This document shows positions 31,901 to 64,000 of a DNA stretch of 64,000 nt, one piece after another. This DNA is from Azolla caroliniana (taxonomy: Eukaryota > Plantae > Polypodiophyta), in contig JBHGNT010000145.1 of assembly GCA_043228905.1 (NCBI GenBank), forward strand, positions 1 to 64,000, in the 5' to 3' direction. The notes under the pieces are model-generated. The model had not been told where the DNA came from. It made no database searches and was given only the letters and a program-made list of their open reading frames with translations. The position numbers were made by a program, and so were the translations under genes. Each line of letters opens with the position of its first letter. The stretch's first letter is position 1.

Positions 31901-32000
31901 TCTGAACTCCCTCCTCATGTTTGCTAATTTCGTCATGTCTCTCGACGTGAGTTTCAAAATCTTGATTTTTTAATTACATATTATCGATAGCGTTGTTAGC
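23600..32000. repeat. Tandem duplication of a 24-monomer block (4213-bp period)
   Basis: Private markers recur 4213 bp apart: AAAGATCCGA at 25911/30124, TAAGGG at 24711/28924 and the 59-bp deletion junction TTGTTAGCTAATTTAC at 27661/31874. 24x178-59=4213. Boundaries are approximate. Confidence 0.88.
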
Positions 32001-40200: not shown

Positions 40201-43200
40201 TCATAGCTAGCGTTGTTAGCTTCGATTCGCATGTTTGAACACAAAAATCCGATATCACACGAGCCAGGTATGAACATTTTAATTTACTCAAGGGCTCCTC
40301 TCAACTCACTCCTCAAATTTGCTAATTTCGTCATTTTTCTCGACCTGAGATTCAAAATCTTGATTTTTTAACTCCATATCATCGCTAGCGTTGTTAGCTT
40401 CGATTCGCATGTTTGAACACAAAAATCCGATATCACACTCGCCAGGTATGAACATTTTAATTTACTCAAGGCCTCCTCTGAACTCCCTCCTCATGTTTGC
40501 TAATTTCGTCGTGTCTCTGGACCTGAGTTTCATAATCTTGATTTTTTAATTCCATTTCATAGCTAGCGTTGTTAGCTTCGATTCGCATGTTTGAACACAA
40601 AAATCCGATATCACACGAGCCAGGTATGAACATTTTAATTTACTCAAGGCCTCCTCTGAACTCCCTCCTCATGTTTGCTAATTTCGTCATGTCTCTCGAC
40701 CTGAGTTTCAAAATCTTGATTTTTTAATTCCATATTATCGATTGCGTTGTTAGCTTCGATTCACATGTTTGAACACAAAAATCCGATATCACACTCGCTA
40801 GGTATGAACATTTTAATTTACTCAAGGGCTTCTCTCAACTCACTCCTCAAATTTGCTAATTTCGTCATATCTCTGGACCTGAGTTTCAAAATCTTGATTT
40901 TTTAAATCCATATCATAGCTAGCGTTGTTAGCTTCGATTCGCATGTTTGAACACAAAAATCCAATATCACACGAGCCAGATATGAACTTTTGAATTTACC
41001 TACTAGCTCTTCCCAACTCACTCCTCAAATTTGGTAATTTCGTCATGTCTCTCGACTTGAGTTTCAAAATCATGATTTTTTAATTCCATATCATAGCTAG
41101 CGTTGTTAGCTTCGATTCGCATGTTTGAACACAAAAATCCGATATCACACGAGACAGATATGAACATTTTAATTTACCTACTAGCTCTTCCCAACTCACT
41201 CCTCAAATTTGGTAATTTCGTCCTGTCTCTCGACCTAGGTTTCAAAATCTTGATTTTTTAACTCCATATCATAGCTAGCGTTTTTAATTTCGATTCACAT
41301 GTTTGAACACAGAAATCCGATATCACACTCGCCAGGTATGAACATTTTAATTTACTCAAGGCCTCCTCTGAACTCCCTCCTCATGTTTGCAAATTTCGTC
41401 ATGTCTCTCTACTTGAGTTTCAAAATCATGATTTTTTAATTCCATATCATAGCTAGCGTTGTTAGGTTCGATTCGCATGTTTGAACACAAAAATCCGATA
41501 TCACACGAGCCAGATATGAACATTTTAATTTACCTACTAGCTCTTCCCAACTCACTCCTGAAATTTGGTAATTTCGTCATGTCTCTCGACCTGAGTTTCA
41601 AAATCTTGATTTTTTATTTCCATATCATAGCTAGCGTTGCTATCTTCGATTCGCATGTTTGAACACAGAAATCCAATATCACACGAGCTAGGTATGAACA
41701 TTTTAATTTACTCAAGGCCTCCTCTGAACTCCCTCCTTATGTTTGCTAATTTCGTCATGTCTCTCGACCTGAGTTTCAAAATCTTGATTTTTTAATTCCA
41801 TATTATCGATAGCGTTGTTAGCTTCGATTCACATGTTTGAACACAAAAATCCGATATCACACTCACTAGGTATGAACATTTTAATTTACTCAAGGGCTCC
41901 TCTCAACTCACTCCTCAAATTTGGTAATTTTGTCATTTCTCTCGACCTAAGTTTCAAAATCTTGATTTTTTAACTCCATATCATAGCTAGCGTTGTTAGC
42001 TTCGATTCGCATGTTTGAACACAAAAATCCGATATCACACTCGCCAGGTATGAACATTTTAATTTACTCAAGGCCTCCTCTGAACTCCCTCCTCATGGTT
42101 GCTAATTTCGTCGTGTCTCTCGACCTGAGTTTCATAATCTTGATTTTTTAATTCCATTTCATAGCTAGCGTTGTTAGCTTCGATTCGCATGTTTGAACAC
42201 AAAAATCCGATATCACACGAGCCAGGTATGAACATTTTAATTTACTCAAGGGCTCCTCTCAACTCACTCCTCAAATTTGCTAATTTCGTCATTTCTCTCG
42301 ACCTGAGTTTCAAAATCTTGATTTTTTAACTCCATATCATAGCTAGCGTTGTTAGCTTCGATTCGCATGTTTGAACACAAAAATCCGATATCACACTCGC
42401 CAGGTATGAACATTTTAATTTACTCAAGGCCTCCTCTGAAATCCCTCCTCATGGTTGCTAATTTCGTCGTGTCTCTGGACCTGAGTTTCATAATCTTGAT
42501 TTTTTAATTCCATTTCATAGCTAGCGTTGTTAGCTTCGATTCGCATGTTTGAACACAAAAATCCGATATCACACGAGCCAGGTATGAACATTTTAATTTA
42601 CTCAAGGCCTCCTCTGAACTCCCTCCTCATGTTTGCTAATTTCGTCATGTCTCTCGACGTGAGTTTCAAAATCTTGATTTTTTAATTCCATATTATCGAT
42701 AGCGTTGTTAGCTTCGATTTGCATGTTTGAACACAAAAATCCGATATCACACGAGCCAGGTATGAACTATTTAATTTACTCAAGGCCTCCTTTGAACTCC
42801 CTCCTCATGTTTGCTAATTTCGTCATGTCTCTCGACCTGAGTTTCAAAATCTTGATTTTTTAATTCCATATCATAGCTAGCGTTGTTAGCTTCGATTCGC
42901 ATGTTTGAACACAAAAATCCGATATCACACTCGCTAGGTATGAACATTTTAATTTACTCAAGACCTCCTCTGAACTCCCTCCTCATGTTTGCTAATTTCG
43001 TCCCTGAGTTTCAAAATCTTGATTTTTTAATTCCATATCATACCTAGCGTTGTTAGCTTCGATTCGCCTGTTTGAACACAAAAATCCGATATCACACGAG
43101 CCAGGTATGAACATTTTAATTTACTCAAGGCCTCCTTTGAACTCCCTCCTGAAATTTGGTAATTTCGTCATGTCTCTCGACCTGAGTTTCAAAATCTTGA

Positions 43201-46200
43201 TTTTTTAATTCCATATTATCGATAGCGTTGTTAGCTTCGATTCGCATGTTTGAACACAAAAATCCGATATCACACGAGCCAGGTATGAACTATTTAATTT
43301 ACTCAAGACCTCCTTTGAACTCCCTCCTCATGTTTGCTAATTTCGTCATGTCTCTCGACCTGAGTTTCAAAATCTTGATTTTTTAATTCCATTTCATAGC
43401 TAGCGTTGTTAGCTTCGATTCGCATGTTTGAACACAAAAATCCGATATCACACGAGCCAGGTATGAACATTTTAATTTACTCAAGGGCTCCTCTCAACTC
43501 ACTCCTCAAATTTGCTAATTTCGTCATTTCTCTCGACCTGAGTTTCAAAATCTTGATTTTTTAACTCCATATCATAGGTAGCGTTGTTAGCTTCGATTCG
43601 CATGTTTGAACACAAAAATCCGATATCACACTCGCCAGGTATGAACATTTTAATTTACTCAAGGCCTCCTCTGAACTCCCTCCTCATGGTTGCTAATTTC
43701 GTCGTGTCTCTGGACCTGAGTTTCATAATCTTGATTTTTTAATTCCATATCATAGCTAGCGTCGCTATCTTCGATTCGCATGTTTGAACACAAAAATCCA
43801 ATATCACACGAGCTAGGTATGAACATTTTAATTTACTCAAGGCCTCCTCTGAACTCCCTCCTTATGTTTGCTAATTTCGTCATGTCTCTCGACCTGAGTT
43901 TCAAAATCTTGATTTTTTAATTCCATATTATCGATAGCGTTGTTAGCTTCGATTCGCATGTTTGAACACAAAAATCCGATATCACACCCGCCAGGTATGA
44001 ACATTTTAATTTACTCAAGGGCTCCTCTCAACTCACTCCTCAAATTTGGTAATTTCGTCGTGTCTCTCGACCTGAGTTTCATAATCTTGATTTTTTAATT
44101 CCATATCATAGCTAGCGTTGTTAGCTTCGATTCGCATGTTTGAACACAAAAATCCGATATCACACGAGCCAGGTATGAACATTTTAATTTACTCAAGGGC
44201 TCCTCTCAACTCACTCCTCAAATTTGCTAATTTCGTCATTTCTCTCGACCTGAGTTTCAAAATCTTGATTTTTTAACTCCATATCATAGCTAGCGTTGTT
44301 AGCTTCGATTCGCATGTTTGAACACAAAAATCCGATATCACACTCGCCAGGTATGAACATTTTAATTTACTCAAGGCCTCCTCTGAACTCCCTCCTCATG
44401 GTTGCTAATTTCGTCGTGTCTCTGGACCTGAGTTTCATAATCTTGATTTTTTAATTCCATTTCATAGCTAGCGTTGTTAGCTTCGATTCGCATGTTTGAA
44501 CACAAAAATCCAATATCACACGAGACAGATATGAACATTTTAATTTACCTACTAGCTCTTCCCAACTCACTCCTCAAATTTGGTAATTTCGTCCTGTCTC
44601 TCGACCTAGGTTTCAAAATCTTGATTTTTTAACTCCATATCATAGCTAGCGTTTTTAATTTCGATTCACATGTTTGACCACAGAAATCCGATATCACACG
44701 AGCCAGGTATGAACATTTTAATTTACTCAAGGCCTCCTCTAAAGTCCCTCCTCATGGTTGCTAATTTCGCCATGTCTCTCGACCTGAGTTTCAAAATCTT
44801 GATTTTTTAAATCCATATCATAGCTAGCGTTGTTAGCTTCGATTCGCATGTTTGAACACAAAAATCCAATATCACACGAGCCAGATATGAACATTTTAAT
44901 TTACCTACTAGCTCTCCCCAACTCAGTCCTGAAATTTGGTAATTTCGTCATGTCTCTCGACCTGAGTTTCAAAATCTTGATTTTTTAATTCCATATCATA
45001 GCTAGCGTTGCTATCTTCGATTCGCATGTTTGAACACAAAAATCCATTATCACACGAGCTAGGTATGAACATTTTAATTTACTCAAGGCCTCCTCTGAAC
45101 TCCCTCCTTATGTTTGCTAATTTCGTCATGTCTCTCGACCTGAGTTTCAAAATCTTGATTTTTTAATTCCATATTATCGATAGCGTTGTTAGCTTCGATT
45201 CGCATGTTTGAACACAAAAATCCAATATCACACTCGCTAGGTATGAACATTTTAATTTACTCAAGGGCTCCTCTCAACTCACTCCTCAAATTTGGTAATT
45301 TCGTCATTTCTCTCGACCTGAGTTTCAAAATCCGATATCACACTCGCCAGGTATGAACATTTTAATTTACTCAAGGCCTCCTTTGAACTCTCTCCTCATG
45401 GTTGCTAATTTCGTCGTGTCTCTCGACCTGAGTTTCAAAATCTTGATTTTTTAATTCCATATTATCGATAGCGTTGTTAGCTTCGATTTGCATGTTTGAA
45501 CACAAAAATCCGATATCACACGAGCCAGGTATGAACATTTTAATTTACTCAAGGCCTCCTCTAAAGTCCCTCCTCATGTTTGCAAATTTCGTCATGTCTC
45601 TCTACTTGAGTTTCAAAATCATGATTTTTTAATTCCATATCATAGCTAGCGTTGTTAGGTTCGATTCGCATGATTGAACACAAAAATCCGATATCACACG
45701 AGCCAGATATGAACATTTTAATTTACCTACTAGCTCTTCCCAACTCACTCCTGAAATTTGGTAATTTCGTCATGTCTCTCGACCTGAGTTTCAAAATCTT
45801 GATTTTTTATTTCCATATCATAGCTAGCGTTGCTATCTTCGATTCGCATGTTTGAACACAAAAATCCAATATCACACGAGCTAGGTATGAACATTTTAAT
45901 TTACTCAAGGCCTCCTCTGAACTCCCTCCTTATGTTTGCTAATTTCGTCATGTCTCTCGACCTGAGTTTCAAAATCTTGATTTTTTAATTCCATATTATC
46001 GATAGCGTTGTTAGCTTCGATTCACATGTTTGAACACAAAAATCCGATATCACACTCGCTAGGTATGAACATTTTAATTTACTCAAGGGCTCCTCTCAAC
46101 TCACTCCTCAAATTTGGTAATTTTGTCATTTCTCTCGACCTAAGTTTCAAAATCTTGATTTTTTAACTCCATATCATAGCTAGCGTTGTTAGCTTCGATT

Positions 46201-49200
46201 CGCATGTTTGAACACAAAAATCCGATATCACACTCGCCAGGTATGAACATTTTAATTTACTCAAGGCCTCCTCTGAACTCCCTCCTCATGGTTGCTAATT
46301 TCGTCGTGTCTCTCGACCTGAGTTTCATAATCTTGATTTTTTAATTCCATTTCATAGCTAGCGTTGTTAGCTTCGATTCGCATGTTTGAACACAAAAATC
46401 CGATATCACACGAGCCAGGTATGAACATTTTAATTTACTCAAGGGCTCCTCTCAACTCACTCCTCAAATTTGCTAATTTCGTCATTTCTCTCGACCTGAG
46501 TTTCAAAATCTTGATTTTTTAACTCCATATCATAGCTAGCGTTGTTAGCTTCGATTCGCATGTTTGAACACAAAAATCCGATATCACACTCGCCAGGTAT
46601 GAACATTTTAATTTACTCAAGGCCTCCTCTGAACTCCCTCCTCATGGTTGCTAATTTCGTCGTGTCTCTAGACCTGAGTTTCATAATCTTGATTTTTTAA
46701 TTCCATTTCATAGCTAGCGTTGTTAGCTTCGATTCGCATGTTTGAACACAAAAATCCGATATCACACGAGCCAGGTATGAACATTTTAATTTACTCAAGG
46801 CCTCCTCTGAACTCCCTCCTCATGTTTGCTAATTTCGTCATGTCTCTCGACGTGAGTTTCAAAATCTTGATTTTTTAATTCCATATTATCGATAGCGTTG
46901 TTAGCTTCGATTTGCATGTTTGAACACAAAAATCCGATATCACACGAGCCAGGTATGAACTATTTAATTTACTCAAGGCCTCCTTTGAACTCCCTCCTCA
47001 TGTTTGCTAATTTCGTCATGTCTCTCGACCTGAGTTTCAAAATCTTGATTTTTTAATTCCATATCATAGCTAGCGTTGTTAGCTTCGATTCGCATGTTTG
47101 AACACAAAAATCCGATATCACACGAGCCAGGTATGAACTATTTAATTTACTCAAGGCCTCCTTTGAACTCCCTCCTCATGTTTGCTAATTTCGTCATGTC
47201 TCTCGACCTGAGTTTCAAAATCTTGATTTTTTAATTCCATATCATAGCTAGCGTTGTTAGCTTCGATTCGCATGTTTGAACACAAAAATCCGATATAACA
47301 CGAGCCAGGTATGAACTATTTAATTTACTCAAGGCCTCCTTTGAACTCCCTCCTCATGTTTGCTAATTTTGTCATGTCTCTCGACCTGAGTTTCAAAATC
47401 TTGATTTTTTAACTCCATATCATAGCTAGCGTTGTTAGCTTCGATTCCCATGTTTGAACACAAAAATCTGATATCACACTCGCTAGGTATGAACATTTTA
47501 ATTTACTCAAGGCCTCCTCTGAACTCCCTCCTCATGTTTGCTAATTTCGTCGTGTCTCTCGACCTGAGTTTCAAAATCTTGATTTTTTAATTCCATATCA
47601 TACCTAGCATTGTTAGCTTCAATTCGCATGTTTGAACACAAAAATCCGATATCACACGAGCCAGGTATGAACATTTTAATTTACTCAAGGCCTCCTTTGA
47701 ACTCCCTCCTCATGTTTGCTAATTTCGTCATGTCTCTCGACCTGAGTTTCAAAATCTTGATTTTTTAATTCCATATTATCGATAGCGTTGTTAGCTTCGA
47801 TTCGCATGTTTGAACACAAAAATCCGATATCACACTCGCTAGGTATGAACATTTTAATTTACTCAAGGGCTCCTCTCAACTCACTCCTCAAATTTGCTAA
47901 TTTCGTCATATCTCTGGACCTGAGTTTCAAAATCTTGATTTTTTAAATCCATATCATAGCTAGCGTTGTTAGCTTCGATTCGCATGTTTGAACACAAAAA
48001 TGCAATATCACACGAGCCAGATATGAACATTTTAATTTACCTACTAGCTCTTCCCAACTCACTCCTCAAATTTGGTAATTTCGTCATGTCTCTCGACTTG
48101 AGTTTCAAAATCATGATTTTTTAATTCCATATCATAGCTAGCGTTGTTAGCTTCGATTCGCATGTTTGAACACAAAAATCCGATATCAGACGAGACAGAT
48201 ATGAACATTTTAATTTACCTACTAGCTCTTCCCAACTCACTCCTCAAATTTGGTAATTTCGTCCTGTCTCTCGACCTAGGTTTCAAAATCTTGATTTTTT
48301 AACTCCATATCATAGCTAGCGTTTTTAATTTCGATTCACATGTTTGAACACAGAAATCCGATATCACACTCGCCAGGTATGAACATTTTAATTTACTCAA
48401 GGCCTCCTCTGAACTCCCTCCTCATGTTTGCAAATTTCGTCATGTCTCTCTACTTGAGTTTCAAAATCATGATTTTTTAATTCCATATTATAGCTAGCGT
48501 TGTTAGCTTCGATTCGCATGTTTGAACACAAAAATCCGATATCACACGAGCCAGATATGAACATTTTAATTTACTCAAGGGCTCCTCTCAACTCACTCCT
48601 CAAATTTGGTAATTTCGTCATTTCTCTCGACCTGAGTTTCAAAATCTTGATTTTTTAACTCCATATCATAGCTAGCGTTGTTAGCTTCGATTCGCATGTT
48701 TGAACACAAAAATCCGATATCACACTCGCCAGGTATGAACATTTTAATTTACTCAAGGCCTCCTCTGAACTCCCTCCGCATGGTTGCTAATTTCGTCGTG
48801 TCTCTCGACCTGAGTTTCATAATCTTGATTTTTTAATTCCATTTCATAGCTAGCGTTGTTAGCTTCGATTCGCATGTTTGAACACAAAAATCCGATATCA
48901 CACGAGCCAGATATGAACATTTTAATTTACCTACTAGCTCTTCCCAACTCAGTCCTGAAATTTGGTAATTTCGTCATGTCTCTCGACCTGAGTTTCAAAA
49001 TCTTGATTTTTTAATTCCATATCATAGCTAGCGTTGCTATCTTCGATTCGCATGTTTGAACACAAAAATCCAATATCACACGAGCTAGGTATGAACATTT
49101 TAATTTACTCAAGGCCTCCTCTGAACTCCCTCCTTATGTTTGCTAATTTCGTCATGTCTCTCGACCTGAGTTTCAAAATCTTGATTTTTTAATTCCATAT

Positions 49201-50699
49201 TATCGATTGCGTTGTTAGCTTCGATTCGCATGTTTGAACACAAAAATCCGATATCACACTCGCTAGGTATGAACATTTTAATTTACTCAAGGGCTCCTCT
49301 CAACTCACTCCTCAAATTTGGTAATTTCGTCATTTCTCTCGATCTGAGTTTCAAAATCTTGATTTTTTAATTCCATATCATAGCTAGCGTTGTTAGCTTC
49401 GATTCGCATGTTGGAACACAAAAATCCGATATCACACTCGCTAGGTATGAACATTTTAATTTACTCAAGGCCTCCTGTGAACTCCCTCCTCATGTTTGCT
49501 AATGTCGTCATGTCTCTCGACTTGAGTTTCAAAATCTTGATTTTTTAATTTCATATCATAGCTAGCGTTGTTAACTTCGATTCGTATGTTTGTACACAAA
49601 AATCCGATATCACACTCGCTAGGTATGAACATTTTAATTTACTCAAGGGCTCCTCTCAACTCACTCCTCAAATTTGCTAATTTCGTCATTTCTCTCGACC
49701 TGAGTTTCAAAATCTTGATTTTTTAACTCCATATCATAGCTAGTGTTGTTAGCTTCGATTCCCATGTTTGAACACAAAAATCCGATATCACACTCGCTAG
49801 GTATGAACATTTTAATTTACTCAAGACCTCCTCTGAACTCCCTCCTCATGTTTGCTAATTTCGTCCCTGAGTTTCAAAATCTTGATTTTTTAATTCCATA
49901 TCATACCTAGCGTTGTTAGCTTCGATTCGCCTGTTTGAACACAAAAATCCGATATCACACGAGCCAGGTATGAACATTTTAATTTACTCAAGGCCTCCTT
50001 TGAACTCCCTCCTCATGTTTGCTAATTTCGTCATGTCTCTCGACCTGAGTTTCAAAATCTTGATTTTTTAATTCCATATTATCGATAGCGTTGTTAGCTT
50101 CGATTCGCATGTTTGAACACAAAAATCCGATATCACACACGCTAGGTATGAACATTTTAATTTACTCAAGGGCTCCTGTGAACTCCCTCCTCATGTTTGC
50201 TAATTTCGTCATGTCTCTCGACCTGAGTTTCAAAATTTTGATTTTTTAACTCCATATCATAGCTAACGTTGTTAGCTTCGATTCGCATGTTTGAATACAA
50301 AAATCCGATATCACACTCGCTAGGTATGAACACTTTAATTTACTCAAGACCTCCTCTCAACTCCCTCCTCATGTTTGCTAATTGCGTTCCTGAGTTTCAA
50401 AATCTTGATTTTTTAATTCCATATCATAGCTAGGGTTGTTAGCTTCGATTCGCATGTTTGAACACAAAAATCCGATATCACACGAGCTAGGTATGAACAT
50501 TTTAATTTACTCAAGGCCTCTTGTGAACTCCCTCCTCATGTTTGCTAATTTGGTCATGTCTCTCGACTTGAGTTTAAAAATCTTGATTTTTTTAATTCCA
50601 TATCATACCTAGCGTTGTTAGCTTCAATTCGCATGTTTGTACACAAAAATCCGATATCACACTCGCTAGGTATGAACATTTTAATTTACTCAAGGGCTC

Positions 50700-50704
50700 C
50701 TCTC
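50700..50704 (+). other. 5' target-site duplication CTCTC
   Basis: The satellite motif CAAGGGCTC-CTCTC-AACTCACTCC is split. CTCTC lies immediately before TGTCA (50705) and again right after TGACA (56492-56496). Confidence 0.95.
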
Positions 50705-50775
50705 TGTCATAACTAGACTCGAACCCATAACCTTTTGTTACACGGGTCGAGACTTTACCATTAGGTTATGAGTTG
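50705..50775 (-). promoter_or_regulatory. tRNA-like Pol III type-2 promoter module (A box + B box), antisense, in 5' LTR U3
   Basis: Minus strand reads CAACTCA-TAACCTAATGG-TAAAGTCTCGACCCGTGTAACAAAAGGTTATG-GGTTCGAGTCT-AGTTATGACA. The A-box-like TAACCTAATGG (50768-50758) and B box GGTTCGAGTC (50725-50716) sit at standard tRNA spacing. Cloverleaf stems are degenerate, so this is not a functional tRNA. Confidence 0.55.
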
Positions 50776-50826
50776 TAATTTGAAGGATATTATTTTCATT
50801 TAGGTTTTATTAGGAAATTGATGTAT

Positions 50827-50876
50827 ATTCCAGATTTCTCTGGAACATTCTAGAAACTTCAGGAGTATTCCTGAAG
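50827..50876. promoter_or_regulatory. Heat-shock element array (10 in-phase alternating nGAAn/nTTCn pentamers)
   Basis: aTTCc aGAtt tcTCt gGAAc aTTCt aGAAa cTTCa gGAgt aTTCc tGAAg: 7 perfect and 3 one-mismatch units, ending 4 bp before the TATA box. Confidence 0.75.
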
Positions 50877-50880
50877 ACAC

Positions 50881-50887
50881 TATAAAA
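50881..50887 (+). promoter_or_regulatory. TATA box of LTR promoter
   Basis: CTATAAAAGG is a canonical TATAWAWR, 33 bp upstream of the predicted start site at 50914. The 3' LTR copy is at 56175. Confidence 0.75.
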
Positions 50888-50913
50888 GGAGGCGCAAGGC
50901 ATTAGTTCGAACC

Positions 50914-50925
50914 AAATCGGTTCAA
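50914..50925 (+). other. Predicted transcript 5' end / self-primer AAATCGGTTCAA
   Basis: Exact reverse complement of 51166-51177, and located at transcription-start distance from the TATA box. Confidence 0.7.
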
Positions 50926-50994
50926 CGCCAGTCTTAAGCCTTCTAACTACTGTTGTATATCTTCCGTCATATAATACATATATCTTTCGCATCA

Positions 50995-50998
<4 letters not shown>

Positions 50999-51034
<36 letters not shown>
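50999..51034 (+). repeat. (TC)18 microsatellite in 5' LTR
   Basis: Read directly from the sequence. Confidence 0.95.
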
Positions 51035-51037
<3 letters not shown>

Positions 51038-51064
51038 CCTTCTCTCAAAGTTCGACACCTCTCA

Positions 51065-51131
51065 TAGTACTAATCCTTCTCTGTCTTAGTACTATTCCCC
51101 AACAATAGTACTAATCCTTCTTTTAGTACTA
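51065..51131. repeat. Four TAGTACTA palindromes in degenerate 18-22 bp repeats at the 3' end of the LTR
   Basis: TAGTACTA at 51065, 51087, 51106 and 51124, mostly followed by A(T)TCC(TTCT). The same arrangement is present in the 3' LTR. Confidence 0.85.
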
Positions 51132-51165
51132 ATTCCTTCTCTGCCTGAATAGAGTTCCTGACAGT

Positions 51166-51177
51166 TTGAACCGATTT
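51166..51177 (+). other. Non-tRNA primer-binding site (self-priming type) TTGAACCGATTT
   Basis: Begins 2 nt (GT) after the LTR-terminal CA, lacks the TGG expected for tRNA-CCA priming, and is a 12/12 complement to 50914-50925. Confidence 0.75.
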
Positions 51178-51252
51178 TCTCCTACTAGTCTCCCTCTTCC
51201 TTCTGTCTCTCTCCTTTCCTACTAGTCTCTTATTTCCCTTTTCCTTCATCCC

Positions 51253-52422
51253 ATGGCCACCGTTAGCGCTGAAGAGTATCAATCCGTTTTCTCGGAATTT
51301 CAATGCTTGAAAGAGAAGTTTCATGCTTTGGAACAAGAAAATCAACGCTTGTTGGGGGATCTTCAGCAAATTTCCTTAGAAAAGCAGCAAACGCAACAAC
51401 AGCATGGGGAACTTGCGTTACGCGTGCAACAACTCGAAGCAACCATCGTAGCAATGCAACAACAAGGGCACGGAGCACAAGGGATTCATAAAGAACCCAA
51501 GATTGGCCTTCCCACGAAGTTCGATGGAACGCGATCGCAGTTTAGAGGGTTTCTTAACCAGGTACGGTTAGTTATTCAAATGCATCCATCCCGATATCCC
51601 ACCGATGCATCACGAGTGGGTTTAGTAGGCACGTTGTTAAATGGCTCAGCATTAGCATGGTTCGCTCCGCTACTAGAAAAGGAATCTCCAGTACTAAATA
51701 ATTTTGAAGAATTCATAAGTGAGTTTAAAGCATGTTTTGGAGATACTGACAGCATAAGGACTGCAATCAACAAAATCCGGCGATTACGCCAAGGTGACCG
51801 TCCAGCCTCCGCATATGCTGCAGATTTCCGCCTACTCGCCGCCGATATCCCCTGGGATGATCAAGCATTGATGGAGCAGTTCCGCTATGGTCTACGCAAC
51901 GATGTCAAGGATTTACTCTTGACTTTCCCTGAAGAGCCAAAATCATTAACAGAAGCAATCAGTCGAGCGGTCAGATGTGACAACCGCCTCTTCGAGCGAC
52001 GTTCGGAACGACAATTTCAGATGCCGAGGGCAAGATCCGAGCCTACCTATGCCTCAATGGTAGCGAAACCTTTTCAAAGGGAGTCACATAATGCGCCTCC
52101 AGTAAGTACTCCAACTCCAATGGAAATTGACACTACACGTCGTCGTGGGCCGCTATCGGAGGAGGAAAAGCAACGACGCCGAACAAACCGATTATGCCTT
52201 TATTGCGGTGGACCAGGGCATATCGCGATAAACTGTCCCCATAGACCAAGAAGGCAGGTAAACCAAGTCATTGTTAGTTCTGACTATACTAAACCCGAGT
52301 CTATGTCAGTAGGAATCTCTGATAATCCTCATAGTCATAATAGTCCTAATAGTACTAATAGTCCGAATCTCGCAAACAAATTTGATGTCCTTAGCCAATT
52401 AGAAGAAGAGTTAAACGACTAA
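51253..52422 (+). CDS. gag: Gag polyprotein (389 aa; coiled-coil N-terminus, retrotransposon capsid domain of the PEG10/RTL1/sushi type, CCHC zinc knuckle)
   Basis: ATG in good context (CCCATGG). Motifs include PTKFDGTRSQFRGFL, LRQG..ASAYAADFR, FRYGLRNDVKD, PTPMEID and CLYCGGPGHIAINC (CX2CX4HX4C, 52195-52236). Confidence 0.95.
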   Translation: MATVSAEEYQSVFSEFQCLKEKFHALEQENQRLLGDLQQISLEKQQTQQQHGELALRVQQLEATIVAMQQQGHGAQGIHKEPKIGLPTKFDGTRSQFRGFLNQVRLVIQMHPSRYPTDASRVGLVGTLLNGSALAWFAPLLEKESPVLNNFEEFISEFKACFGDTDSIRTAINKIRRLRQGDRPASAYAADFRLLAADIPWDDQALMEQFRYGLRNDVKDLLLTFPEEPKSLTEAISRAVRCDNRLFERRSERQFQMPRARSEPTYASMVAKPFQRESHNAPPVSTPTPMEIDTTRRRGPLSEEEKQRRRTNRLCLYCGGPGHIAINCPHRPRRQVNQVIVSSDYTKPESMSVGISDNPHSHNSPNSTNSPNLANKFDVLSQLEEELND

Positions 52423-55400
52423 GTCCAGCCAAAATAGGAGCCGTTTGGTTGGACAGCCCTAGATCTGTGCAGCCCATTAGTGGTTCCATTCCCTCTAAGC
52501 AAGTTAGTGATGTGTTCGTAGTCCAAGTAGCAGTTAGTACTAAAAGAACCCCTCCAGTACATACCTTAGCCCTTCTAGATTCCGGAGCTAATTCTTGCTT
52601 CATGGATAGGAATTTTGCCCGAGCTCATCAGATATCTCTCAGAAAGCTCCCATGTCCAGCCTCAGTAGTAGTCATTGATGGTCGTCCCATTGCTTCTGGT
52701 AATATCATAGAAGAGTCGGAACCCGTTAATATTGTCCTAGATAACTTAACATGTGTAGTATCATTTAATATTATTAGTATTCCAGAACATCCCATAGTTT
52801 TAGGATTACCATGGTTCGAGTTACATGACCCAGACATAGATTGGAGGACAAGGGAAATCCGGTTGCGACAAACCCAAGGATCTACCCAGAAGGTTGCAAC
52901 CATTTCGCTACGTCAGTTGCGTGAGGAAGGGCGCAAGGAGGAAATGTTTCTCTTTGCAATATCAGTACAACCCTCCAGCACCACCAAAGAGGAGTCCACC
53001 GTTCAACTTCCCGAGAAGTATCGTCAGTATGCTGATGTGTTCGATAAAGTACAAGCCAACACACTTCCTCATCATCGGCCGTACGACTGCGCCATCGACT
53101 TACAACCGGGAAAAGAGCCGCCATGGGGGCCGATCTACAATTTGTCACCAACCGAGCTAGAAGTCCTTCGAGCCTATATAGAGGAGAATTTGGAGAACGG
53201 TTTCATTCGGCATTCGAAATCTCCAGCCGGCGCACCCATTTTCTTCGTCAAGAAAAAAGATGGCTCGCTTCGACTCGTTGTAGATTACCGTGGCTTGAAT
53301 AAGGTCACAGTAAGAAATAGGTATGCTCTTCCCCTTATCTCAAGTCTTTTAGAACGGATCAACGGTGCCAGGTTCTTCACGAAGATCGACTTACGAGGAG
53401 CCTATAACCTCGTACGGATCCGACCAGGAGATGAATGGAAGACCGCGTTTCGCACCAGATATGGGCACTTCGAGTATACGGTCATGCCGTTCGGACTCAC
53501 TAATGCGCCGGCAGTCTTCCAGCACATGGCGAATGATATATTTCGAGACCTCTTGGATGATTTTTTGATCATCTATTTGGATGATCTACTGGTTTATTCA
53601 AAGACCCAAGAAGAACATGATTCTCATGTACTATTAGTACTAAAACGACTTCGAGAACATGGTCTGTATGCAAAGTTAGAGAAATGTAGTTTCGGGTGCA
53701 ACCAAGTGGAGTTTCTCGGCTATGTCATCTCCTCAGAAGGCATATCTATGGACCCAGCCAAGGTCAAAACGGTGATAGAATGGCACACTCCGCGTTCGGT
53801 GCGGGATGTGCAATGCTTCCTAGGCTTTGCAAATTTCTATCGGAAGTTCATACAAAATTACTCAAAAATTGTGCTGCCTCTCACACAGCTCACCAGGAAG
53901 GGACAATCATTCATTTGGTCTAAAGAGACGGACATGGCTTTCGAGAGTCTTAAGAAGGCGTTTACATCAGCTCCAATTTTAGGTCATGTGGATCCGGAAA
54001 AACCATTCATTATCGAAGCTGATGCATCGGATTTCGCATTGGGGAGCATTCTGTCACAACAGGGTAACGACGAGAAGCTACATCCTGTGGCTTTCCACTC
54101 CCGTAAGTTTGACGCCGCCGAAATCAACTACGAAATTCATGATAAAGAGCTATTAGCAATAGTTGATTCTTTTATGCAATGGAGGCATTTCCTGGAGGGA
54201 TCTCCTCATCAGGTCACTGTATTCAGTGACCACAAGAACCTTGCCTACTTTCAAGATGCTCGTGTACTGAATCGACGTCAAGCTCGGTGGGCCCATTTCC
54301 TCACACGCTTCGACTTCAAAATTACATATCGTCCGGGGAAGCACCAAGGGAAGGCAGATGCATTATCACGGCGCTCGTATCTAACACCACGTCCCGGTGA
54401 GCCAGCTTTCGATAACCAGAAGCAAGTAATCTTGGGTCCAGCACGACTGCAAGCAGCACAGATCTTTGACATGCCCGTGGATTCCGACATTACCAATACT
54501 ATACGTGAGGACTTGAAGACTGACGCTTTCGCCCAAGCTATACTAGCACAAATTGACCCCTCTCGAGCGTCATGTTCACAATCACAATCACCAGGTACGG
54601 ATTATCGGCAATTCAAATACTGTGATGGATTACTCTTCTTTAAAGAACTTTTGTATGTTCCTAATGGTTCTTGCCGCCTTCAAGTAGTACAAAACTGCCA
54701 TGACACATATACAGCAGGACATTTTGGTAGTACTAAAACATTAGATTTAGTACAACGATCATTCTGGTGGCCCCGTATGCGACAATTTGTCGAAGATTTT
54801 GTTCGGACTTGCGATACATGCTGCAGAGCGAAAATGCCAAGACATCATCCATATGGTTTATTAGAACCATTACCAATTCCAAGCAAGCCATGGCAATCCA
54901 TTGCTCTTGACTTCATTACAGATCTTCCAGTCTCTAAGGGATTCAGTGCGATTCTCACAGTGGTGGATCGATATACGAAGATGGCTCATTTCTTACCATG
55001 TACTAAAGAAATATCTAGTGAAGACACCGCCGAAATTGTCATGCGGGAAGTATGTCGGCATCATGGACTCCCTGATAATATCATCAGCGATCGTGGACCC
55101 CAGTTTGTGTCAAAATTCTGGAAGCACCTTTTTAAAATGCTGAAGGTCACTTGTAACCTCTCCTCCGGCTACCACCCACAAACCGACGGTCAAGCCGAAC
55201 GAACAAATCAAACACTGGAGCAGTATCTGCGGTGCTTTCTCAACTATCATCAGAATGACTGGGCAGATATTCTTCCGTTCGCCGAATTTGCCTATAATAA
55301 CGCTATCCACGCATCGACTAAAGTCACGCCATTCTACGCTTATACGGGATATCATCCCCGGTGGTGTGTCCTTGAAACCCCAGAAGTGTCCACAAATCCT

Positions 55401-56006
55401 TGCGCGGAGGATCGTTTGGAGCGGTTACGCAAGATACAAGCGGATTTATCTACTCAACTCCAGCAAGCTCAACAATCACACAAGGACTACGCAGATCGTC
55501 ATCGACTTCCATCCAGTTTTAACATTGGAGATCGGGTGTGGCTGCTACGACGACACATCAAGACTACTCGCCCATGTGAGAAGTTGGATTATCGACGATT
55601 AGGTCCTTTCCGTATTATCGGGAAGATTAATGATGTCGCTTTTCGTCTCGAGCTACCTCCGCAACTTCGGATACACCCGGTGTTTCATAGTTCTCTCCTC
55701 GAACCCTATCACGAGAGCACTATCCCAGGACGTACTATACAACCTCCACCTCCTATCGAGCTCGAAGATGGACCTGAGTATGAGGTCGCTGCCATCCTCG
55801 ATTCCAAGATTGTTCGCAACAAGCTCTACTATCTAGTCGATTGGCTAGGATATAGTCCCAGCGAGCGTACTTGGGAACCGATCGAGAATGTGACCAATGC
55901 TCGTGCTCTTCTAGAAGACTTCCATCGACGATATCCCGAGAAACCGGGTCCTCAATCCAAAACGACTCGTGAAACTCGTCGTTTTAAAGGGGGGATAGTG
56001 TCATAA
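52395..56006 (+). CDS. pol: Pol polyprotein: aspartic protease, reverse transcriptase, RNase H, integrase, chromodomain; expressed as Gag-Pol by -1 frameshift
   Basis: The ORF track gives 52449-56006 from a TTG, but the frame is open from 52395 and overlaps the gag end in the -1 frame. Motifs: ALLDSGA (D at 52578), MPFGLTNAPAVFQ, YLDD (53574-53585), EADASDFALG, NYEIHDKELLAIV, H..GHFG..C..C, DFITDLP, SDRGPQF, QTDGQAERTNQ, GPF and EYEV..ILD..YLVDWLGY..TWEP. Confidence 0.96.
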   Translation, partial: PIRRRVKRLSPAKIGAVWLDSPRSVQPISGSIPSKQVSDVFVVQVAVSTKRTPPVHTLALLDSGANSCFMDRNFARAHQISLRKLPCPASVVVIDGRPIASGNIIEESEPVNIVLDNLTCVVSFNIISIPEHPIVLGLPWFELHDPDIDWRTREIRLRQTQGSTQKVATISLRQLREEGRKEEMFLFAISVQPSSTTKEESTVQLPEKYRQYADVFDKVQANTLPHHRPYDCAIDLQPGKEPPWGPIYNLSPTELEVLRAYIEENLENGFIRHSKSPAGAPIFFVKKKDGSLRLVVDYRGLNKVTVRNRYALPLISSLLERINGARFFTKIDLRGAYNLVRIRPGDEWKTAFRTRYGHFEYTVMPFGLTNAPAVFQHMANDIFRDLLDDFLIIYLDDLLVYSKTQEEHDSHVLLVLKRLREHGLYAKLEKCSFGCNQVEFLGYVISSEGISMDPAKVKTVIEWHTPRSVRDVQCFLGFANFYRKFIQNYSKIVLPLTQLTRKGQSFIWSKETDMAFESLKKAFTSAPILGHVDPEKPFIIEADASDFALGSILSQQGNDEKLHPVAFHSRKFDAAEINYEIHDKELLAIVDSFMQWRHFLEGSPHQVTVFSDHKNLAYFQDARVLNRRQARWAHFLTRFDFKITYRPGKHQGKADALSRRSYLTPRPGEPAFDNQKQVILGPARLQAAQIFDMPVDSDITNTIREDLKTDAFAQAILAQIDPSRASCSQSQSPGTDYRQFKYCDGLLFFKELLYVPNGSCRLQVVQNCHDTYTAGHFGSTKTLDLVQRSFWWPRMRQFVEDFVRTCDTCCRAKMPRHHPYGLLEPLPIPSKPWQSIALDFITDLPVSKGFSAILTVVDRYTKMAHFLPCTKEISSEDTAEIVMREVCRHHGLPDNIISDRGPQFVSKFWKHLFKMLKVTCNLSSGYHPQTDGQAERTNQTLEQYLRCFLNYHQNDWADILPFAEFAYNNAIHASTKVTPFYAYTGYHPRWCVLETPEVSTNPCAEDRLERLRKIQADLSTQLQQAQQSHKDYADRHRLPSSFNIGDRVWLLRRHIKTTRPCEKLDYRRLGPFRIIGKINDVAFRLELPPQLRIHPVFHSSLLEPYHESTIPGRTIQPPPPIELEDGPEYEVAAILDSKIVRNKLYYLVDWLGYSPSERTWEPIENVTNARALLEDFHRRYPEKPGPQSKTTRETRRFKGGIVS
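52410..52461 (+). promoter_or_regulatory. -1 programmed ribosomal frameshift signal: G_UUA_AAC heptamer plus stem-loop/pseudoknot
   Basis: G TTA AAC at 52410-52416 in gag phase, then a 6-nt spacer. An 11-bp stem forms between GTCCAGCCAAA (52423-52433) and TTTGGTTGGAC (52444-52454; one G-U). Loop TAGG(A)GC can pair with GCCCTA (52456-52461). Confidence 0.8.
55776..55925 (+). other. Integrase C-terminal chromodomain (group I-like, aromatic cage residues retained)
   Basis: EYEVAAILDSKIVRNKLYYLVDWLGYSPSERTWEPIENVTNARALLEDFH matches the HP1-type chromodomain pattern (Y..; W.GY; TWEP). Confidence 0.9.
55986..55998 (+). other. Polypurine tract AAAGGGGGGATAG
   Basis: Purine run immediately 5' of the 3' LTR start TG (55999). 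Confidence 0.9.
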
Positions 56007-56288
56007 CTAGACTCGAACCCATAACCTTTTCTTACACGGGTCGAGACTTTACCATTAGGTTATGAGTTGTAATTTGAAGGATATTATTTTCATTTAGGTT
56101 TTATTAGGAAATTGATGTATATTCCAGATTTCTCTGGAACATTCTAGAAACTTCAGGAGTATTCCTGAAGACACTATAAAAGGAGGCGCAAGGCATTAGT
56201 TCGAACCAAATCGGTTCAACGCCAGTCTTAAGCCTTCTAACTACTGTTGTATATCTTCCGTCATATAATACATATATCTTTCGCATCA

Positions 56289-56358
<70 letters not shown>

Positions 56359-56491
56359 ACTCATTCCTTCTCTCAAAGTTCGACACCTCTCATAGTACTA
56401 ATCCTTCTCTGTCTTAGTACTATTCCCCAACAATAGTACTAATCCTTCTTTTAGTACTAATTCCTTCTCTGCCTGAATAGAGTTCCTGACA
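55999..56491 (+). repeat. 3' LTR (493 bp)
   Basis: TGTCATAACTAG...GTTCCTGACA. Carries second copies of the A/B-box module (55999-56069), HSE (56121-56170) and TATA (56175). Confidence 0.97.
56293..56362 (+). repeat. (TC)31(ACTC)2 microsatellite in 3' LTR
   Basis: Read directly; 34 bp longer than the 5' LTR copy, which accounts for the whole LTR length difference. Confidence 0.93.
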
Positions 56492-56496
56492 CTCTC
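56492..56496 (+). other. 3' target-site duplication CTCTC
   Basis: Follows TGACA and continues in satellite phase as AACTCACTCCTCAAATTTG. Confidence 0.95.
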
Positions 56497-59400
56497 AACT
56501 CACTCCTCAAATTTGCTAATTTCGTCATTTCTCTCGACCTGAGTTTCAAAATCTTGATTTTTTAACTCCATATCATAGCTAGCGTTTGAACACAAAAATC
56601 CGATATCACACTCGCCAGGTATGAACATTTTAATTTACTCAAGCCCTCCTCTGAACTCCCTCCTCATGGTTGCTAATTTCGTCGTGTCTCTCGACCTGAG
56701 TTTTATAATCTTGATTTTTTAATTCCATTTCATAGCTAGCGTTGTTAGCTTCGATTCGCATGTTTGAACACAAAAATCCGATATCACACGAGCCAGGTAT
56801 GAACATTTTAATTTACTCAAGGCCTCCTCTAAACTCCCTCCTCATGTTTGCTAATTTCGTCATGTCTCTCGACCTGAGTTTCAAAATCTTGATTTTTTAA
56901 TTCCATATCATAGCTAGCGTGGTTAGCTTCGATTCGCATGATTGAATACAAAAATCCGATATCACACGAGCTAGGTATGAACATTTTAATTTACTCAAGG
57001 CCTCCTGTGAACTCCCTCCTCATGTTTGCTAATTTGGTCATGTCTCTCGACTTGAGTTTCAAAATCTTGATTTTTTTAATTCCATATCATACCTAGCGTT
57101 GTTAGCTTCCATTCACATGTTTGTACACAAAAATCCGATATCACACTCGCTAGGTATGAACATTTTAATGTACTCAAGGGCTCCTCTCAACTCACTCCTC
57201 AAATTTGGTAATTTCGTCATTTCTCTCGACCTGAGTTTCAAAATCTTGAGTTTTTTAACTCCATATCATAGCTAGCGTTGTTAGCTTCGATTCGCATGTT
57301 TGAACACAAAAATCCGATATCACACTCGCCAGGTATGAACATTTTAATTTACTCAAGGCCTCCTCTGAACTCCCTCCTCATGGTTGCTAATTTCGTCGTG
57401 TCTCTCGACCTGAGTTTTATAATGTTGATTTTTTAATCCCATTTCATAGCTAGCGTTGTTAGCTTCGATTCGCATGTTTGAACACAAAAATCCGATATCA
57501 CACTCGCTAGGTATGAACCTTTTAATTTACTCAAGGCCTCCTCTGAACTCCCTCCTCATGTTTGCTAATTTCGTCATGTCTCTCGACCTGAGTTTCAAAA
57601 TCTTGATTTTTTAATTCCATATTATCGATAGCGTTGTTAGATTCGATTCGCATGTTTGAACACAAAAATCCGATATCACACGAGCCAGGTATGAACATTT
57701 TAATTTACTCAAGGCCTCCTTTGAACTCCCTCCTCATGTTTGCTAATTTCGTCATGTCTCTCGACCTGAGTTTCAAAATCTTGATTTTTTAATTCCATAT
57801 CATACCTAACGGTGTTAGCTTCGATTCGCGTGTTTGTACACAAAAATCCGATATCACACTCGCTAGGTATGAACATTTTAATTTACTCAAGGGCTCCTCT
57901 GAACTCCCTCCTCATGTTTGCTAATTTCGTCGTGTCTCTCGACCTGAGTTTCAAAATCTTGATTTTTTAAAAACATATCATAGCTAGCGTTGTTAGCTTC
58001 GATTCGCATGTTAGAACACAAAAATCCGATATCACCCGAGCTAGGTATGAACATTTTAATTTACTCAAGGCCTCTTGTGAACTCCCTCCTCATGGTTGCT
58101 AATTTCGTCGTGTCTCTCGACCTGAGTTTCATAATCTTGATTTTTTAATTCCATTTCATAGCTAGCGTTGTTAGCTTCGATTCGCATGTTTGAACACAAA
58201 AATCCGATATCACACGAGCCAGATATGAACATTTTAATTTACCTACTAGCTCTTCCCAACTCAGTCCTGAAATTTGGTAATTTCGTCATGTCTCTCGACC
58301 TGAGTTTCAAAATCTTGATTTTTTAATTCCATATCATAGCTAGCGTTGCTATCTTCGATTCGCATGTTTGAACACAAAAATCCAATATCACACGAGCTAG
58401 GTATGAACATTTTAATTTACTCAAGGCCTCCTCTGAACTCCCTCCTTATGTTTGCTAATTTCGTCATGTCTCTCGACCTGAGTTTCAAAATCTTGATTTT
58501 TTAATTCCATATTATCGATTGCGTTGTTAGCTTCGATTCGCATGTTTGAACACAAAAATCCGATATCACACTCGCTAGGTATGAACATTTTAATTTACTC
58601 AAGGGCTCCTCTCAACTCACTCCTCAAATTTGCTAATTTCGTCATTTCTCTCGACCTGAGTTTCAAAATCTTGATTTTTTAATTCCATATCATAGCTAGC
58701 GTTGTTAGCTTCGATTCGCATGTTGGAACACAAAAATCCGATATCACACTCGCTAGGTATGAACATTTTAATTTACTCAAGGCCTCCTGTGAACTCCCTC
58801 CTCATGTTTGCTAATGTCGTCATGTCTCTCGACTTGAGTTTCAAAATCTTGATTTTTTAATTTCATATCATAGCTAACGTTGTTAACTTCGATTCGTATG
58901 TTTGTACACAAAAATCCGATATCACACTCGCTAGGTATGAACATTTTAATTTACTCAAGGGCTCCTCTGAACTCCCTCCTCATGTTTGCTAATTTCGTCA
59001 TGTCTCTCGACCTGAGTTACAAAATCTTGATTTTTTAAAAACATATCATAGCTAGCGTTGTTAGCTTCGATTCGCATGTTAGAACACAAAAATCCGATAT
59101 CACCCGAGCTAGGTATGAACATTTTAATTTACTCAAGGCCTCTTGTGAACTCCCTCCTCATGGTTGCTAATTTCGTCGTGTCTCTCGACCTGAGTTTCAT
59201 AATCTTGATTTTTTAATTCCATTTCATAGCTAGCGTTGTTAGCTTCGATTCGCATGTTTGAACACAAAAATCCGATATCACACGAGCCAGATATGAACAT
59301 TTTAATTTACCTACTAGCTCTTCCCAACTCAGTCCTGAAATTTGGTAATTTCGTCATGTCTCTCCACCTGAGTTTCAAAATCTTGATCTTTTAATTCCAT

Positions 59401-62400: not shown

Positions 62401-64000
62401 ACCTAGCGTTGTTAGCTTCAATTCGAATGTTTGTACACAAAAATCCGATATCACACTCGCTAGGTATGAACATTTTAATTTACTCAAGGGCTCCTCTCAA
62501 CTCACTCCTCAAATTTGCTAATTTCGTCATTTCTCTCGACCTGAGTTTCAAAATCTTGATTTTTTAACTCCATATCATAGCTAGCGTTGTTAGCTTCGAT
62601 TCGCATGTTTGAACACAAAAATCCGATATCACACTCGCCAGGTATGAACATTTTAATTTACTCAAGGCCTCCTCTGAACTCCCTCCTCATGGTTGCTAAT
62701 TTCGTCGTGTCTCTCGACCTGAGTTTTATAATCTTGATTTTTTAATTCCATTTCATAGCTAGCGTTGTTAGCTTCGATTCACATGTTTGAACACAAAAAT
62801 CCGATATCACACGAGCCAGGTATGAACATATTAATTTACTCAAGGCCTCCTCTAAACTCCCTCCTCATGTTTGCTAATTTCGTCATGTCTCTCGACCTGA
62901 GTTTCAAAATCTTGATTTTTTAATTCCATATCACAGCTAGCGTGGTTAGCTTCGATTCGCATGATTGAATACAAAAATCCGATATCACACGAGCTAGGTA
63001 TGAACATTTTAATTTACTCAAGGCCTCCTGTGAACTCCCTCCTCATGTTTGCTAATTTGGTCATGTCTCTCGACTTGAGTTTCAAAATCTTGATTTTTTT
63101 AATTCCATATCATACCTAGCGTTGTTAGCTTCAATTCGCATGTTTGTACACAAAAATCCGATATCACACTCGGTAGGTATGAACATTTTAATGTACTCAA
63201 GGGCTCCTCTCAACTCACTCCTCAAATTTGGTAATTTCGTCATTTCTCTCGACCTGAGTTTCAAAATCTTGATTTTTTAACTCCATATCATAGCTAGCGT
63301 TGTTAGCTTCGATTCGCATGTTTGAACACAAAAATCCGATATCACACTCGCCAGGTATGAACATTTTAATTTACTCAAGGCCTCCTCTGAACTCCCTCCT
63401 CATGGTTGCTAATTTCGTCGTGTCTCTCGACCTGAGTTTTATAATCTTGATTTTTTAATCCCATTTCATGGCTAGCGTTGTTAGCTTCGATTCGCATGTT
63501 TGAACACAAAAATCCGATATCACACTCGCTAGGTATGAACCTTTTAATTTACTCAAGGCCTCCTCTGAACTCCCTCCTCATGTTTGCTAATTTCGTCATG
63601 TCTCTCGACCTGAGTTTCAAAATCTTGATTTTTTAATTCCATATTATCAATAGCGTTGTTAGCTTCGATTCGCATGTTTGAACACAAAAATCCGATATCA
63701 CACGAGCCAGGTATGAACATTTTAATTTACTCAAGGCCTCCTTTGAACTCCCTCCTCATGTTTGCTAATTTCGTCATGTCTCTCGACCTGAGTTTTAAAA
63801 TCTTGATTTTTTAATTCCATATCATACCTAACGTTGTTAGCTTCGATTCGCGTGTCTGTACACAAAAATCCGATATCACACTCGCTAGGTATGAACATTT
63901 TAATTTACTCAAGGGCTCCTCTGAACTCCCTCCTCATGTTTGCTAATTTCGTCATGTCTCTCGACCTGAGTTTCAAAATCTTGATTTTTTAAACACATAT
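56492..64000. repeat. 178-bp tandem satellite array, right arm (about 42 monomers), same orientation, more diverged
   Basis: Same monomer resumes in register after the TSD. Contains a local 6-mer duplication (AAAACATATC at about 57969/59037, 1068 bp) and an 8-mer duplication (GTTTAAAAA 1413 bp apart at about 60952/62365). Confidence 0.97.

What the first reader, a model, noticed from the sequence alone, without database searches (positions are those of the whole stretch)
50827..50887. Ten-unit heat-shock element abutting the TATA box: predicted heat-inducible Gypsy element
Seen: 50 bp of in-phase alternating pentamers (7 perfect, including the uninterrupted GAAcaTTCtaGAAacTTC) ending 4 bp from TATAAAA, in both LTRs. 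Established: HSF trimers bind three or more alternating nGAAn units, and HSE capture makes the Copia element ONSEN heat-activated. Inference: up to three HSF trimers could drive this element. The 3' LTR copy could also drive heat-induced read-through into the right-hand satellite, analogous to HSF1-driven satellite III transcription.
Basis: partly seen in the sequence, partly recalled or inferred. Interest (0 to 1): 0.72.

Follow-up and report, generated by a model that had tools for sequence, protein, structure and literature searches.

The report
Heat-shock switch in moss-type chromovirus LTRs
A young, intact plant jumping gene carries a long run of heat-shock-factor-type binding motifs right in front of its promoter, as do several of its distant relatives, so it likely switches on under heat stress, a trick already proven for other jumping genes but not found described for this lineage.

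Summary
Observation confirmed: ten in-phase alternating nGAAn/nTTCn units (7 perfect, 50827-50876) end 4 bp before TATAAAA, in both LTRs; 0 of 5,000 LTR shuffles reach 6. The element is an intact, self-priming Tcn1-type chromovirus of a land plant, likely a moss. Its self-primer fixes the transcription start at about 50914, so the TATA sits at -33. The cassette has 513 exact genomic copies from a recent burst. The array is not a one-off: the four-unit core persists in older copies, and 17 of 18 places examined with seven perfect units are LTRs of related families. Two sister families carry CATGC-rich repeats instead. HSF-driven heat induction is likely (about 0.7) but untested; no RNA data bear on it. 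Satellite read-through is unsupported, since the satellite insertion looks incidental. The mechanism is known from ONSEN and from flatworm Ty3 elements, so this is a new member of a known kind. The clade-wide persistence and motif swap are the new part. The scan's index showed no earlier report of it.

The parts
50705..51163 (+). 5' LTR (459 bp, TG...CA)
   Evidence: differs from the 3' LTR by 1 substitution and a (CT)n length change
50827..50876 (+). HSE-type array, 10 in-phase pentamers, 7 perfect
50843..50860 (+). perfect four-unit (4P) core GAAcaTTCtaGAAacTTC, free of CG and CHG
50881..50887 (+). TATA box, 33 bp upstream of the inferred start
   Evidence: -32 to -34 in 12 of 13 representative LTRs
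50914..50925 (+). self-primer: predicted first 12 nt of the transcript, marks the transcription start (inferred)
51166..51177 (+). primer-binding site complementary to 50914-50925; sequence is hypervariable directly behind it
51256..52422 (+). gag ORF (capsid, zinc knuckle)
52410..52454 (+). candidate -1 frameshift signal: G TTA AAC heptamer, 6-nt spacer, 11-bp hairpin
   Evidence: heptamer and hairpin also in L073 and L107
52395..56006 (+). pol frame (-1 to gag): protease, RT, RNase H, integrase, SH3, chromodomain
55986..55998 (+). polypurine tract
55999..56491 (+). 3' LTR (493 bp)
56121..56181 (+). second copy of HSE array plus TATA
50700..50704 (+). 5-bp target-site duplication CTCTC, left copy
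56492..56496 (+). 5-bp target-site duplication CTCTC, right copy
173..50703 (.). 178-bp satellite array, left of the element (likely subtelomeric family)
56497..63992 (.). 178-bp satellite array, right of the element

Best explanation
The 50-bp array is a heat-shock-element-type motif in the U3 promoter of an intact Tcn1-type chromovirus, and it likely lets host heat-shock factors switch the element on under heat or protein-damaging stress. Shown: ten in-phase units with a perfect four-unit core; a TATA 4 bp downstream; a 12-bp self-priming duplex that places the RNA start 33 bp after the TATA; plant-type HSF genes in the host; conservation of the core in older copies; similar arrays before the TATA in at least five related LTR groups. 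Inferred: two HSF trimers bind the core cooperatively, a third may use the flanking imperfect units, and the resulting full-length RNA is frameshifted, self-primed and integrated. The arrays likely arise and are renewed by tandem duplication of a 10-bp palindromic unit. The insertion into the satellite is likely incidental.
For: Far beyond chance. Start site: the PBS is invariant for 14 nt in 35 of 35 5' LTRs and hypervariable right after; the duplex is in both the MFE and the centroid fold, z -5.6, 0 of 200 shuffles as stable; primer and PBS change together in L071, L073 and L261; the TATA is at -32 to -34 in 12 of 13 LTRs. Host: 10 HSF DNA-binding matches; 8 of the 10 printed peptides end at the plant-type intron, one runs through it and one was printed out of frame. 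Among 30 of 33 HSP20 loci, the best upstream score was 6 of 10 (5 loci) and the longest perfect run 4 (4 loci); the LTR scores 7 and 4. In 57 older or variant insertions, units 4-7 are perfect in 57, 54, 55 and 46; core G/C vary less (0.045) than spacer G/C (0.18) or other LTR G/C (0.127). Of 47 genome-wide perfect 7-unit matches, 20 were fetched (18 places); 17 are LTRs of related families. Precedent: 4P elements go with up to 1,000-fold heat induction in Brassicaceae Copia (PMC5059998, Discussion and passages read); HSE mutation abolishes heat response of a flatworm Ty3 LTR (PMC12801592, Results read).
Against: No expression, binding or eccDNA data were obtained. The array holds 4 CHG sites and the U3 5 CG sites, whereas the ONSEN promoter has none (PMC3907296, passages), so methylation could block it. 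In the flatworm study 2 of 6 HSE-bearing families were not induced (PMC12801592). RLG1, the main chromodomain Gypsy of Physcomitrium, is repressed by heat (PMC7466625, passages; its LTR was not available to compare). A/T spacers are as conserved as A/T core positions (0.021 vs 0.043), the copies are related, and CHG decay explains part of the G/C pattern, so selection on the cores is only modestly shown. The HSE-less sister families also persist in the genome, so the array is not required for the lineage.
Confidence: 0.7

Rival explanations
1. The array binds HSFs, but the biological trigger is not heat: it gives basal, developmental, desiccation- or oxidation-linked expression, or is mostly held off by repressor-class HSFs or CHG methylation.
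For: About 10 HSF genes in the host. 4 CHG sites in the array. The outgroup family L074 mixes HSE units with GCATG motifs. That plant HSFs answer several stresses and include repressors is recalled knowledge.
Against: The layout copies that of the host's small-HSP promoters, with an HSE shortly before the TATA. In the published cases 4P elements track heat induction (PMC5059998).
Confidence: 0.17
2. The array is a neutral by-product: reverse-transcriptase slippage duplicates a 10-bp palindrome in an AT-rich U3, or another factor reads the TCTAGA palindromes.
For: The array has 10- and 20-bp self-similarity (20 of 40 and 19 of 30 matches). L071 is an almost pure 10-bp tandem. L079 has another periodic repeat at this place that is not an HSE.
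Against: The GAA/TTC phase is kept in families with 58-72% integrase identity whose distal U3 no longer aligns. The position before the TATA is fixed. Spacer letters differ between families while cores do not.
Confidence: 0.07
3. The point of this locus is heat-induced read-through from the 3' LTR into the satellite, like HSF1-driven satellite III RNA.
For: The 3' LTR has the full promoter and faces about 7.5 kb of satellite. One other copy also lies in this satellite (L242).
Against: Satellite flanks at 1 of 30 LTR loci and 0 of 18 full elements. The satellite has no 3-unit HSE. Any of roughly 250 copies would read into whatever lies downstream. Satellite III is itself HSF1-bound (recalled), which is not the case by motif here.
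Confidence: 0.06

Closest known systems
ONSEN/COPIA78 and TERESTRA (Brassicaceae Ty1/Copia; PMC3907296 passages, PMC5059998 passages and Discussion)
   Same: 4P heat-shock element in the LTR promoter; origin by duplication of a half element; predicted HSF recruitment
   Different: Ty3/Gypsy chromovirus in a seed-free-type plant; 10 units rather than 4-6; array has CHG sites; shared across many families rather than one family or species; induction untested here
HSE-bearing Ty3 families of Macrostomum lignano (Mag, CsRN1, Gmr1/Osvaldo; PMC12801592 abstract and Results)
   Same: Ty3 superfamily LTR with canonical HSEs upstream of the start
   Different: Those are scattered independent gains (6 of 137 families); here the array marks a large part of one chromovirus sub-clade
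chromovirus|Tcn1 (Neumann et al. 2019, PMC6317226 passages and one supplement row; Novikova et al. 2010, PMC2864245 passages)
   Same: 5-bp TSD, size in range, self-priming, overlapping gag and pol, chromodomain with aromatic cage
   Different: No heat-shock element was found described for the clade in my searches
Physcomitrium RLG1 and RLG2 (PMC7466625 passages)
   Same: Moss Gypsy families with measured heat response; RLG1 has a chromodomain
   Different: RLG1 is repressed by heat, RLG2 induced by heat and ABA; no promoter motif given in the passages seen; relation to this family not tested

Membership tests
Heat-shock element, 4P type | four or more adjacent alternating nGAAn units | tested here: met
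   50843-50860; definition from PMC5059998
Heat-shock element, 4P type | lies in a promoter, upstream of TATA and start | tested here: met
   TATA at -33 from the start inferred from the self-primer
Heat-shock element, 4P type | bound by HSF | not testable with these tools
   HSF genes exist in the host; binding not measured
Heat-activated LTR retrotransposons (ONSEN-like behaviour) | transcript rises on heat, dependent on the HSE | not testable with these tools
   no run on record as RNA was listed
Heat-activated LTR retrotransposons (ONSEN-like behaviour) | promoter free of CG and CHG (ONSEN trait) | tested here: not met
   U3 has 5 CG and 4 CHG; only the 18-bp core has none. Relatives L071, L253 and L256 have none in -140..-30
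COPIA78/ONSEN family | Ty1/Copia domain order | tested here: not met
   protease-RT-RNase H-integrase-chromodomain
chromovirus|Tcn1 | C-terminal chromodomain with aromatic cage | tested here: met
   PF00385 E 2e-14; Tyr, Trp and Tyr present at the cage positions by eye (positions recalled)
chromovirus|Tcn1 | self-priming instead of tRNA priming | tested here: met
   clade trait in PMC6317226
chromovirus|Tcn1 | 5-bp TSD, 5.5-9.4 kb, overlapping gag and pol | tested here: met
   CTCTC TSD, 5,787 bp, 28-bp overlap in -1 frame
chromovirus|Tcn1 | groups with reference Tcn1 elements in an RT-RH-INT tree | not tested
   no named reference sequences were available; trees held only unnamed relatives
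chromovirus|Tcn1 | host is a moss or club-moss | tested here: inconclusive
   land-plant-type HSF and HSP20 genes, 523 Mb assembly; no named close relative returned

The most novel reading that the evidence does not exclude
Moss-type Tcn1 chromoviruses carry an old, exchangeable stress-enhancer slot just before the TATA. Most families keep rebuilding long HSE arrays there, longer than any host small-HSP promoter examined, while sister families replaced it with RY-like (CATGC) repeats and so would answer desiccation or ABA instead. Families in one genome would thus split stress niches, and thousands of LTRs would form the genome's largest pool of HSF sites, able to titrate HSF or make neighbouring genes heat-responsive.
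Probability: 0.3. Interest if true: 0.65.

Novelty: new member of a known kind. Interest (0 to 1): 0.42.

Why it matters
If induction is confirmed, this adds a chromovirus of a seed-free-type plant to the short list of LTR elements with a direct HSF switch; PMC12801592 counts only ONSEN and the flatworm families as validated. It also offers a natural comparison inside one genome: close families with and without the array, and subfamilies with 5, 6 or 7 perfect units. That makes it testable whether HSE strength predicts induction and copy-number success. The variable bases behind the PBS give a genome-only way to map start sites of self-priming elements.

Tried and rejected
Expression: no RNA holder listed. 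Four runs laid (X7, X1, X9, X8) were all contigs, of uncertain type and mostly of diverged relatives; they say nothing on level, start or heat response. Satellite targeting: rejected. Integrase-independent insertion by PBS likeness at the second satellite copy: its 3' flank begins GTTTGAAC like the PBS, but a normal 5-bp TSD is present, so it was not pursued. Capture of the HSE from a host small-HSP promoter: best match 16 of 18 letters (L048, L051), mostly consensus positions, so convergence explains it; not excluded. Single origin of the array: the trees do not settle it. One search puts the HSE outgroup L074 outside an (HSE + RY-like) clade; needs 3 changes, at least 2 forced by well-supported branches. 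Stepwise gain of units 9 and 10 in the young clade is suggested, but the root and backbone of the LTR tree are weak. Host naming by protein search gave no named close relative. Literature searches that found no description of HSEs in Tcn1, chromovirus or bryophyte LTRs: (open-access library only; listings seen). (RY motif) was seen as a listing only, so the RY/ABI3 label is recalled. Supplements of bioRxiv preprints and of the Physcomitrium TE paper were not read and could hold LTR motif analyses. Earlier scan notes concerned another lineage and were not used.

Full report
Observation. From 50827 the window reads ten in-phase pentamers alternating nTTCn and nGAAn. Seven are perfect, and three match two of three letters and keep the key G or C. 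TATAAAA starts at 50881, 4 bp later. The 3' LTR holds the same cassette. These are the only 3- or 4-unit perfect HSEs in the window. Shuffles never reached 6 of 10 in 5,000 LTR trials, and a perfect 4-unit element appeared in 2 of 20,000. The contiguous perfect block is four units (50843-50860).

The element. It spans 50705-56491, with LTRs of 459 and 493 bp that differ by one substitution and a (CT)n length change, a CTCTC target-site duplication and a polypurine tract. It sits in a 178-bp satellite. gag (398 aa frame) overlaps pol (1,203 aa frame) in the -1 frame; Pfam finds capsid, zinc knuckle, protease, RT, RNase H, integrase, SH3 and chromodomain. TSD length, size, ORF layout, self-priming and chromodomain fit chromovirus|Tcn1 as tabulated by Neumann et al. 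(PMC6317226; passages; one supplement row), a clade that among plants occurs in mosses and club-mosses. A tree with named references was not possible. The host has 10 HSF DNA-binding matches with plant-type exon ends and 33 HSP20 matches, so it is a land plant; 'moss' is an inference.

Is the TATA real? The 12 bases at 51166-51177 are complementary to 50914-50925 in the LTR. This duplex forms in both the MFE and the centroid fold (z -5.6; 0 of 200 shuffles), and both sides change together in L071, L073 and L261. In 35 of 35 5' LTRs the first 14 bases after the LTR are invariant and the next ones vary freely (one of 36 rows was a satellite flank and is left out). In self-priming elements the primer is the RNA's 5' end (established for Tf1; mentioned in PMC2864245, passage), so the start is inferred at A50914. 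The TATA is then at -33 and the array at -87 to -38. The TATA lies at -32 to -34 in 12 of 13 representative LTRs. This supports the promoter layout independently of the HSE motif.

Comparison with host promoters. In 1,500 bp upstream of 30 of the 33 HSP20 matches, the best 10-unit score was 6 (5 loci) and the longest perfect run 4 (4 loci); the LTR scores 7 and 4. Several of these promoters have an HSE shortly before a TATA.

Copies and age. The 64-bp cassette has 513 exact matches, with 0 for the reversed control. A motif at the start site, allowing one mismatch, has 4,139. Of 20 full elements fetched, 18 could be parsed: 8 substitutions in 8,282 paired LTR bases, both ORFs full length in 13 of 18, satellite flanks in 0 of 18. 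At a recalled moss rate of about 9e-9 per site per year this is roughly 50,000 years, biased young by the exact-match selection. Eight older LTR pairs of the family differ at 3-16 of about 285 bases (one truncated pair at 44 of 267, one young pair at 0).

Conservation inside the family. I fetched 72 LTRs from the first 100 hits that lacked the exact cassette. Four belong to HSE-less sister families. After dropping these, 9 second LTRs and 2 truncated copies, 57 remained. Units 4-7 are perfect in 57, 54, 55 and 46; unit 9 in 30; unit 10 in 7. Core G/C vary less (0.045) than spacer G/C (0.18) or other LTR G/C (0.127; p 0.003, copies not independent). A/T spacers are as constant as A/T cores, so the test is only modest. 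Both units 9 and 10 are perfect only in the young clade (support 100), but the backbone of that tree is weak.

Beyond the family. Of 79 metagenome loci, 49 with the 3' end of pol were scanned; 3 had a perfect HSE of three or more units downstream (L071, L092, L074), and L107 has a decayed one in its 5' LTR. All are among the closer relatives (54-78% identity), while the close relatives L072, L073 and L079 lack it. In the own genome 47 matches have seven perfect units in a row. The 20 fetched are 18 places: 17 are LTRs of related families and one lies beside a Copia-like ORF; 27 were not fetched. These families share 58-72% integrase identity with the window element, and their distal U3 does not align to it (local scores 12-19), yet the GAA/TTC phase and the place before the TATA are kept. 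L071 is nearly a pure 10-bp tandem, which suggests origin by duplication, as reported for ONSEN (PMC5059998, Discussion). Sister families carry CATGC-rich repeats in the same slot. The trees allow an ancestral array with losses, or two to three gains.

Mechanism. Most likely (0.7): host class A HSF trimers bind the 4P core, perhaps extended by the flanking units, and drive transcription from 50914 under heat. Motif, geometry, host factors and conservation are shown; binding and induction are inferred from ONSEN (PMC3907296, passages) and from flatworm Ty3 elements (PMC12801592, Results). Against: four CHG sites in the array, unlike ONSEN; 2 of 6 HSE-bearing flatworm families were not induced; Physcomitrium RLG1 is heat-repressed (PMC7466625, passages); and no usable RNA data were found.

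Satellite read-through. It is possible for any 3' LTR, but nothing supports it here. Satellite flanks occur at 1 of 30 LTR loci and 0 of 18 elements, the satellite has no HSE, and it looks subtelomeric.

Novelty. HSE-driven LTR elements are known, including in the Ty3 superfamily. My searches found no description for Tcn1, chromoviruses or bryophytes, and the scan's index held none. Verdict: a real feature and a new member of a known kind. The added interest lies in the clade-wide persistence, the motif swap between sister families and the natural series of HSE strengths. Interest 0.42.

Noticed in passing
window 51178-51183 and 34 other 5' LTRs: Sequence is invariant through the PBS and then hypervariable, with small indels (position 15: T 15, C 15, G 5 of 35). 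This likely records non-templated or cap-templated bases added where the plus strand runs off the self-primer. Tf1 RT adds non-templated bases (PMC11042837, passage).
   Followed up: partly
window 52410-52454: G TTA AAC heptamer, 6-nt spacer and an 11-bp hairpin at the gag-pol overlap, present in all 21 young copies matched and kept in L073 and L107: candidate -1 ribosomal frameshift signal.
   Followed up: partly
L172, L173, L195, L161 (own genome); L072, L073: Sister families have CATGC and CAA(A/G)TG(G/T)C repeats where the HSE array sits; L161 keeps one TTCnnGAA remnant upstream. The likeness to RY/ABI3 sites is recalled, not tested.
   Followed up: partly
window satellite; G000 C1:1067, C2:3835 onward, C8 near 0.26 Mb: The 178-bp satellite has 35,407 exact matches to a 19-mer and begins at the very start of C1 and C2, so it is likely subtelomeric.
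   Followed up: partly
L251 (G000:C6:6858499): A perfect 7-unit HSE next to an ORF that looks like a Copia RNase H (motif recalled): possibly an independent HSE-bearing Copia family.
   Followed up: no
G000:C12:18510927 and 18516247: Two matches 5.3 kb apart read as both LTRs of one copy of this family in which unit 8 has become perfect, giving seven perfect units in a row (not fetched).
   Followed up: no
G000:C2:12246775-12277654: Ten exact cassette copies within 31 kb, four of them 3,190 bp apart: a tandem or nested cluster.
   Followed up: no
G000:C9:17.9-18.3 Mb: Cluster of about 17 HSP20 genes, many with TATA-proximal HSEs.
   Followed up: partly
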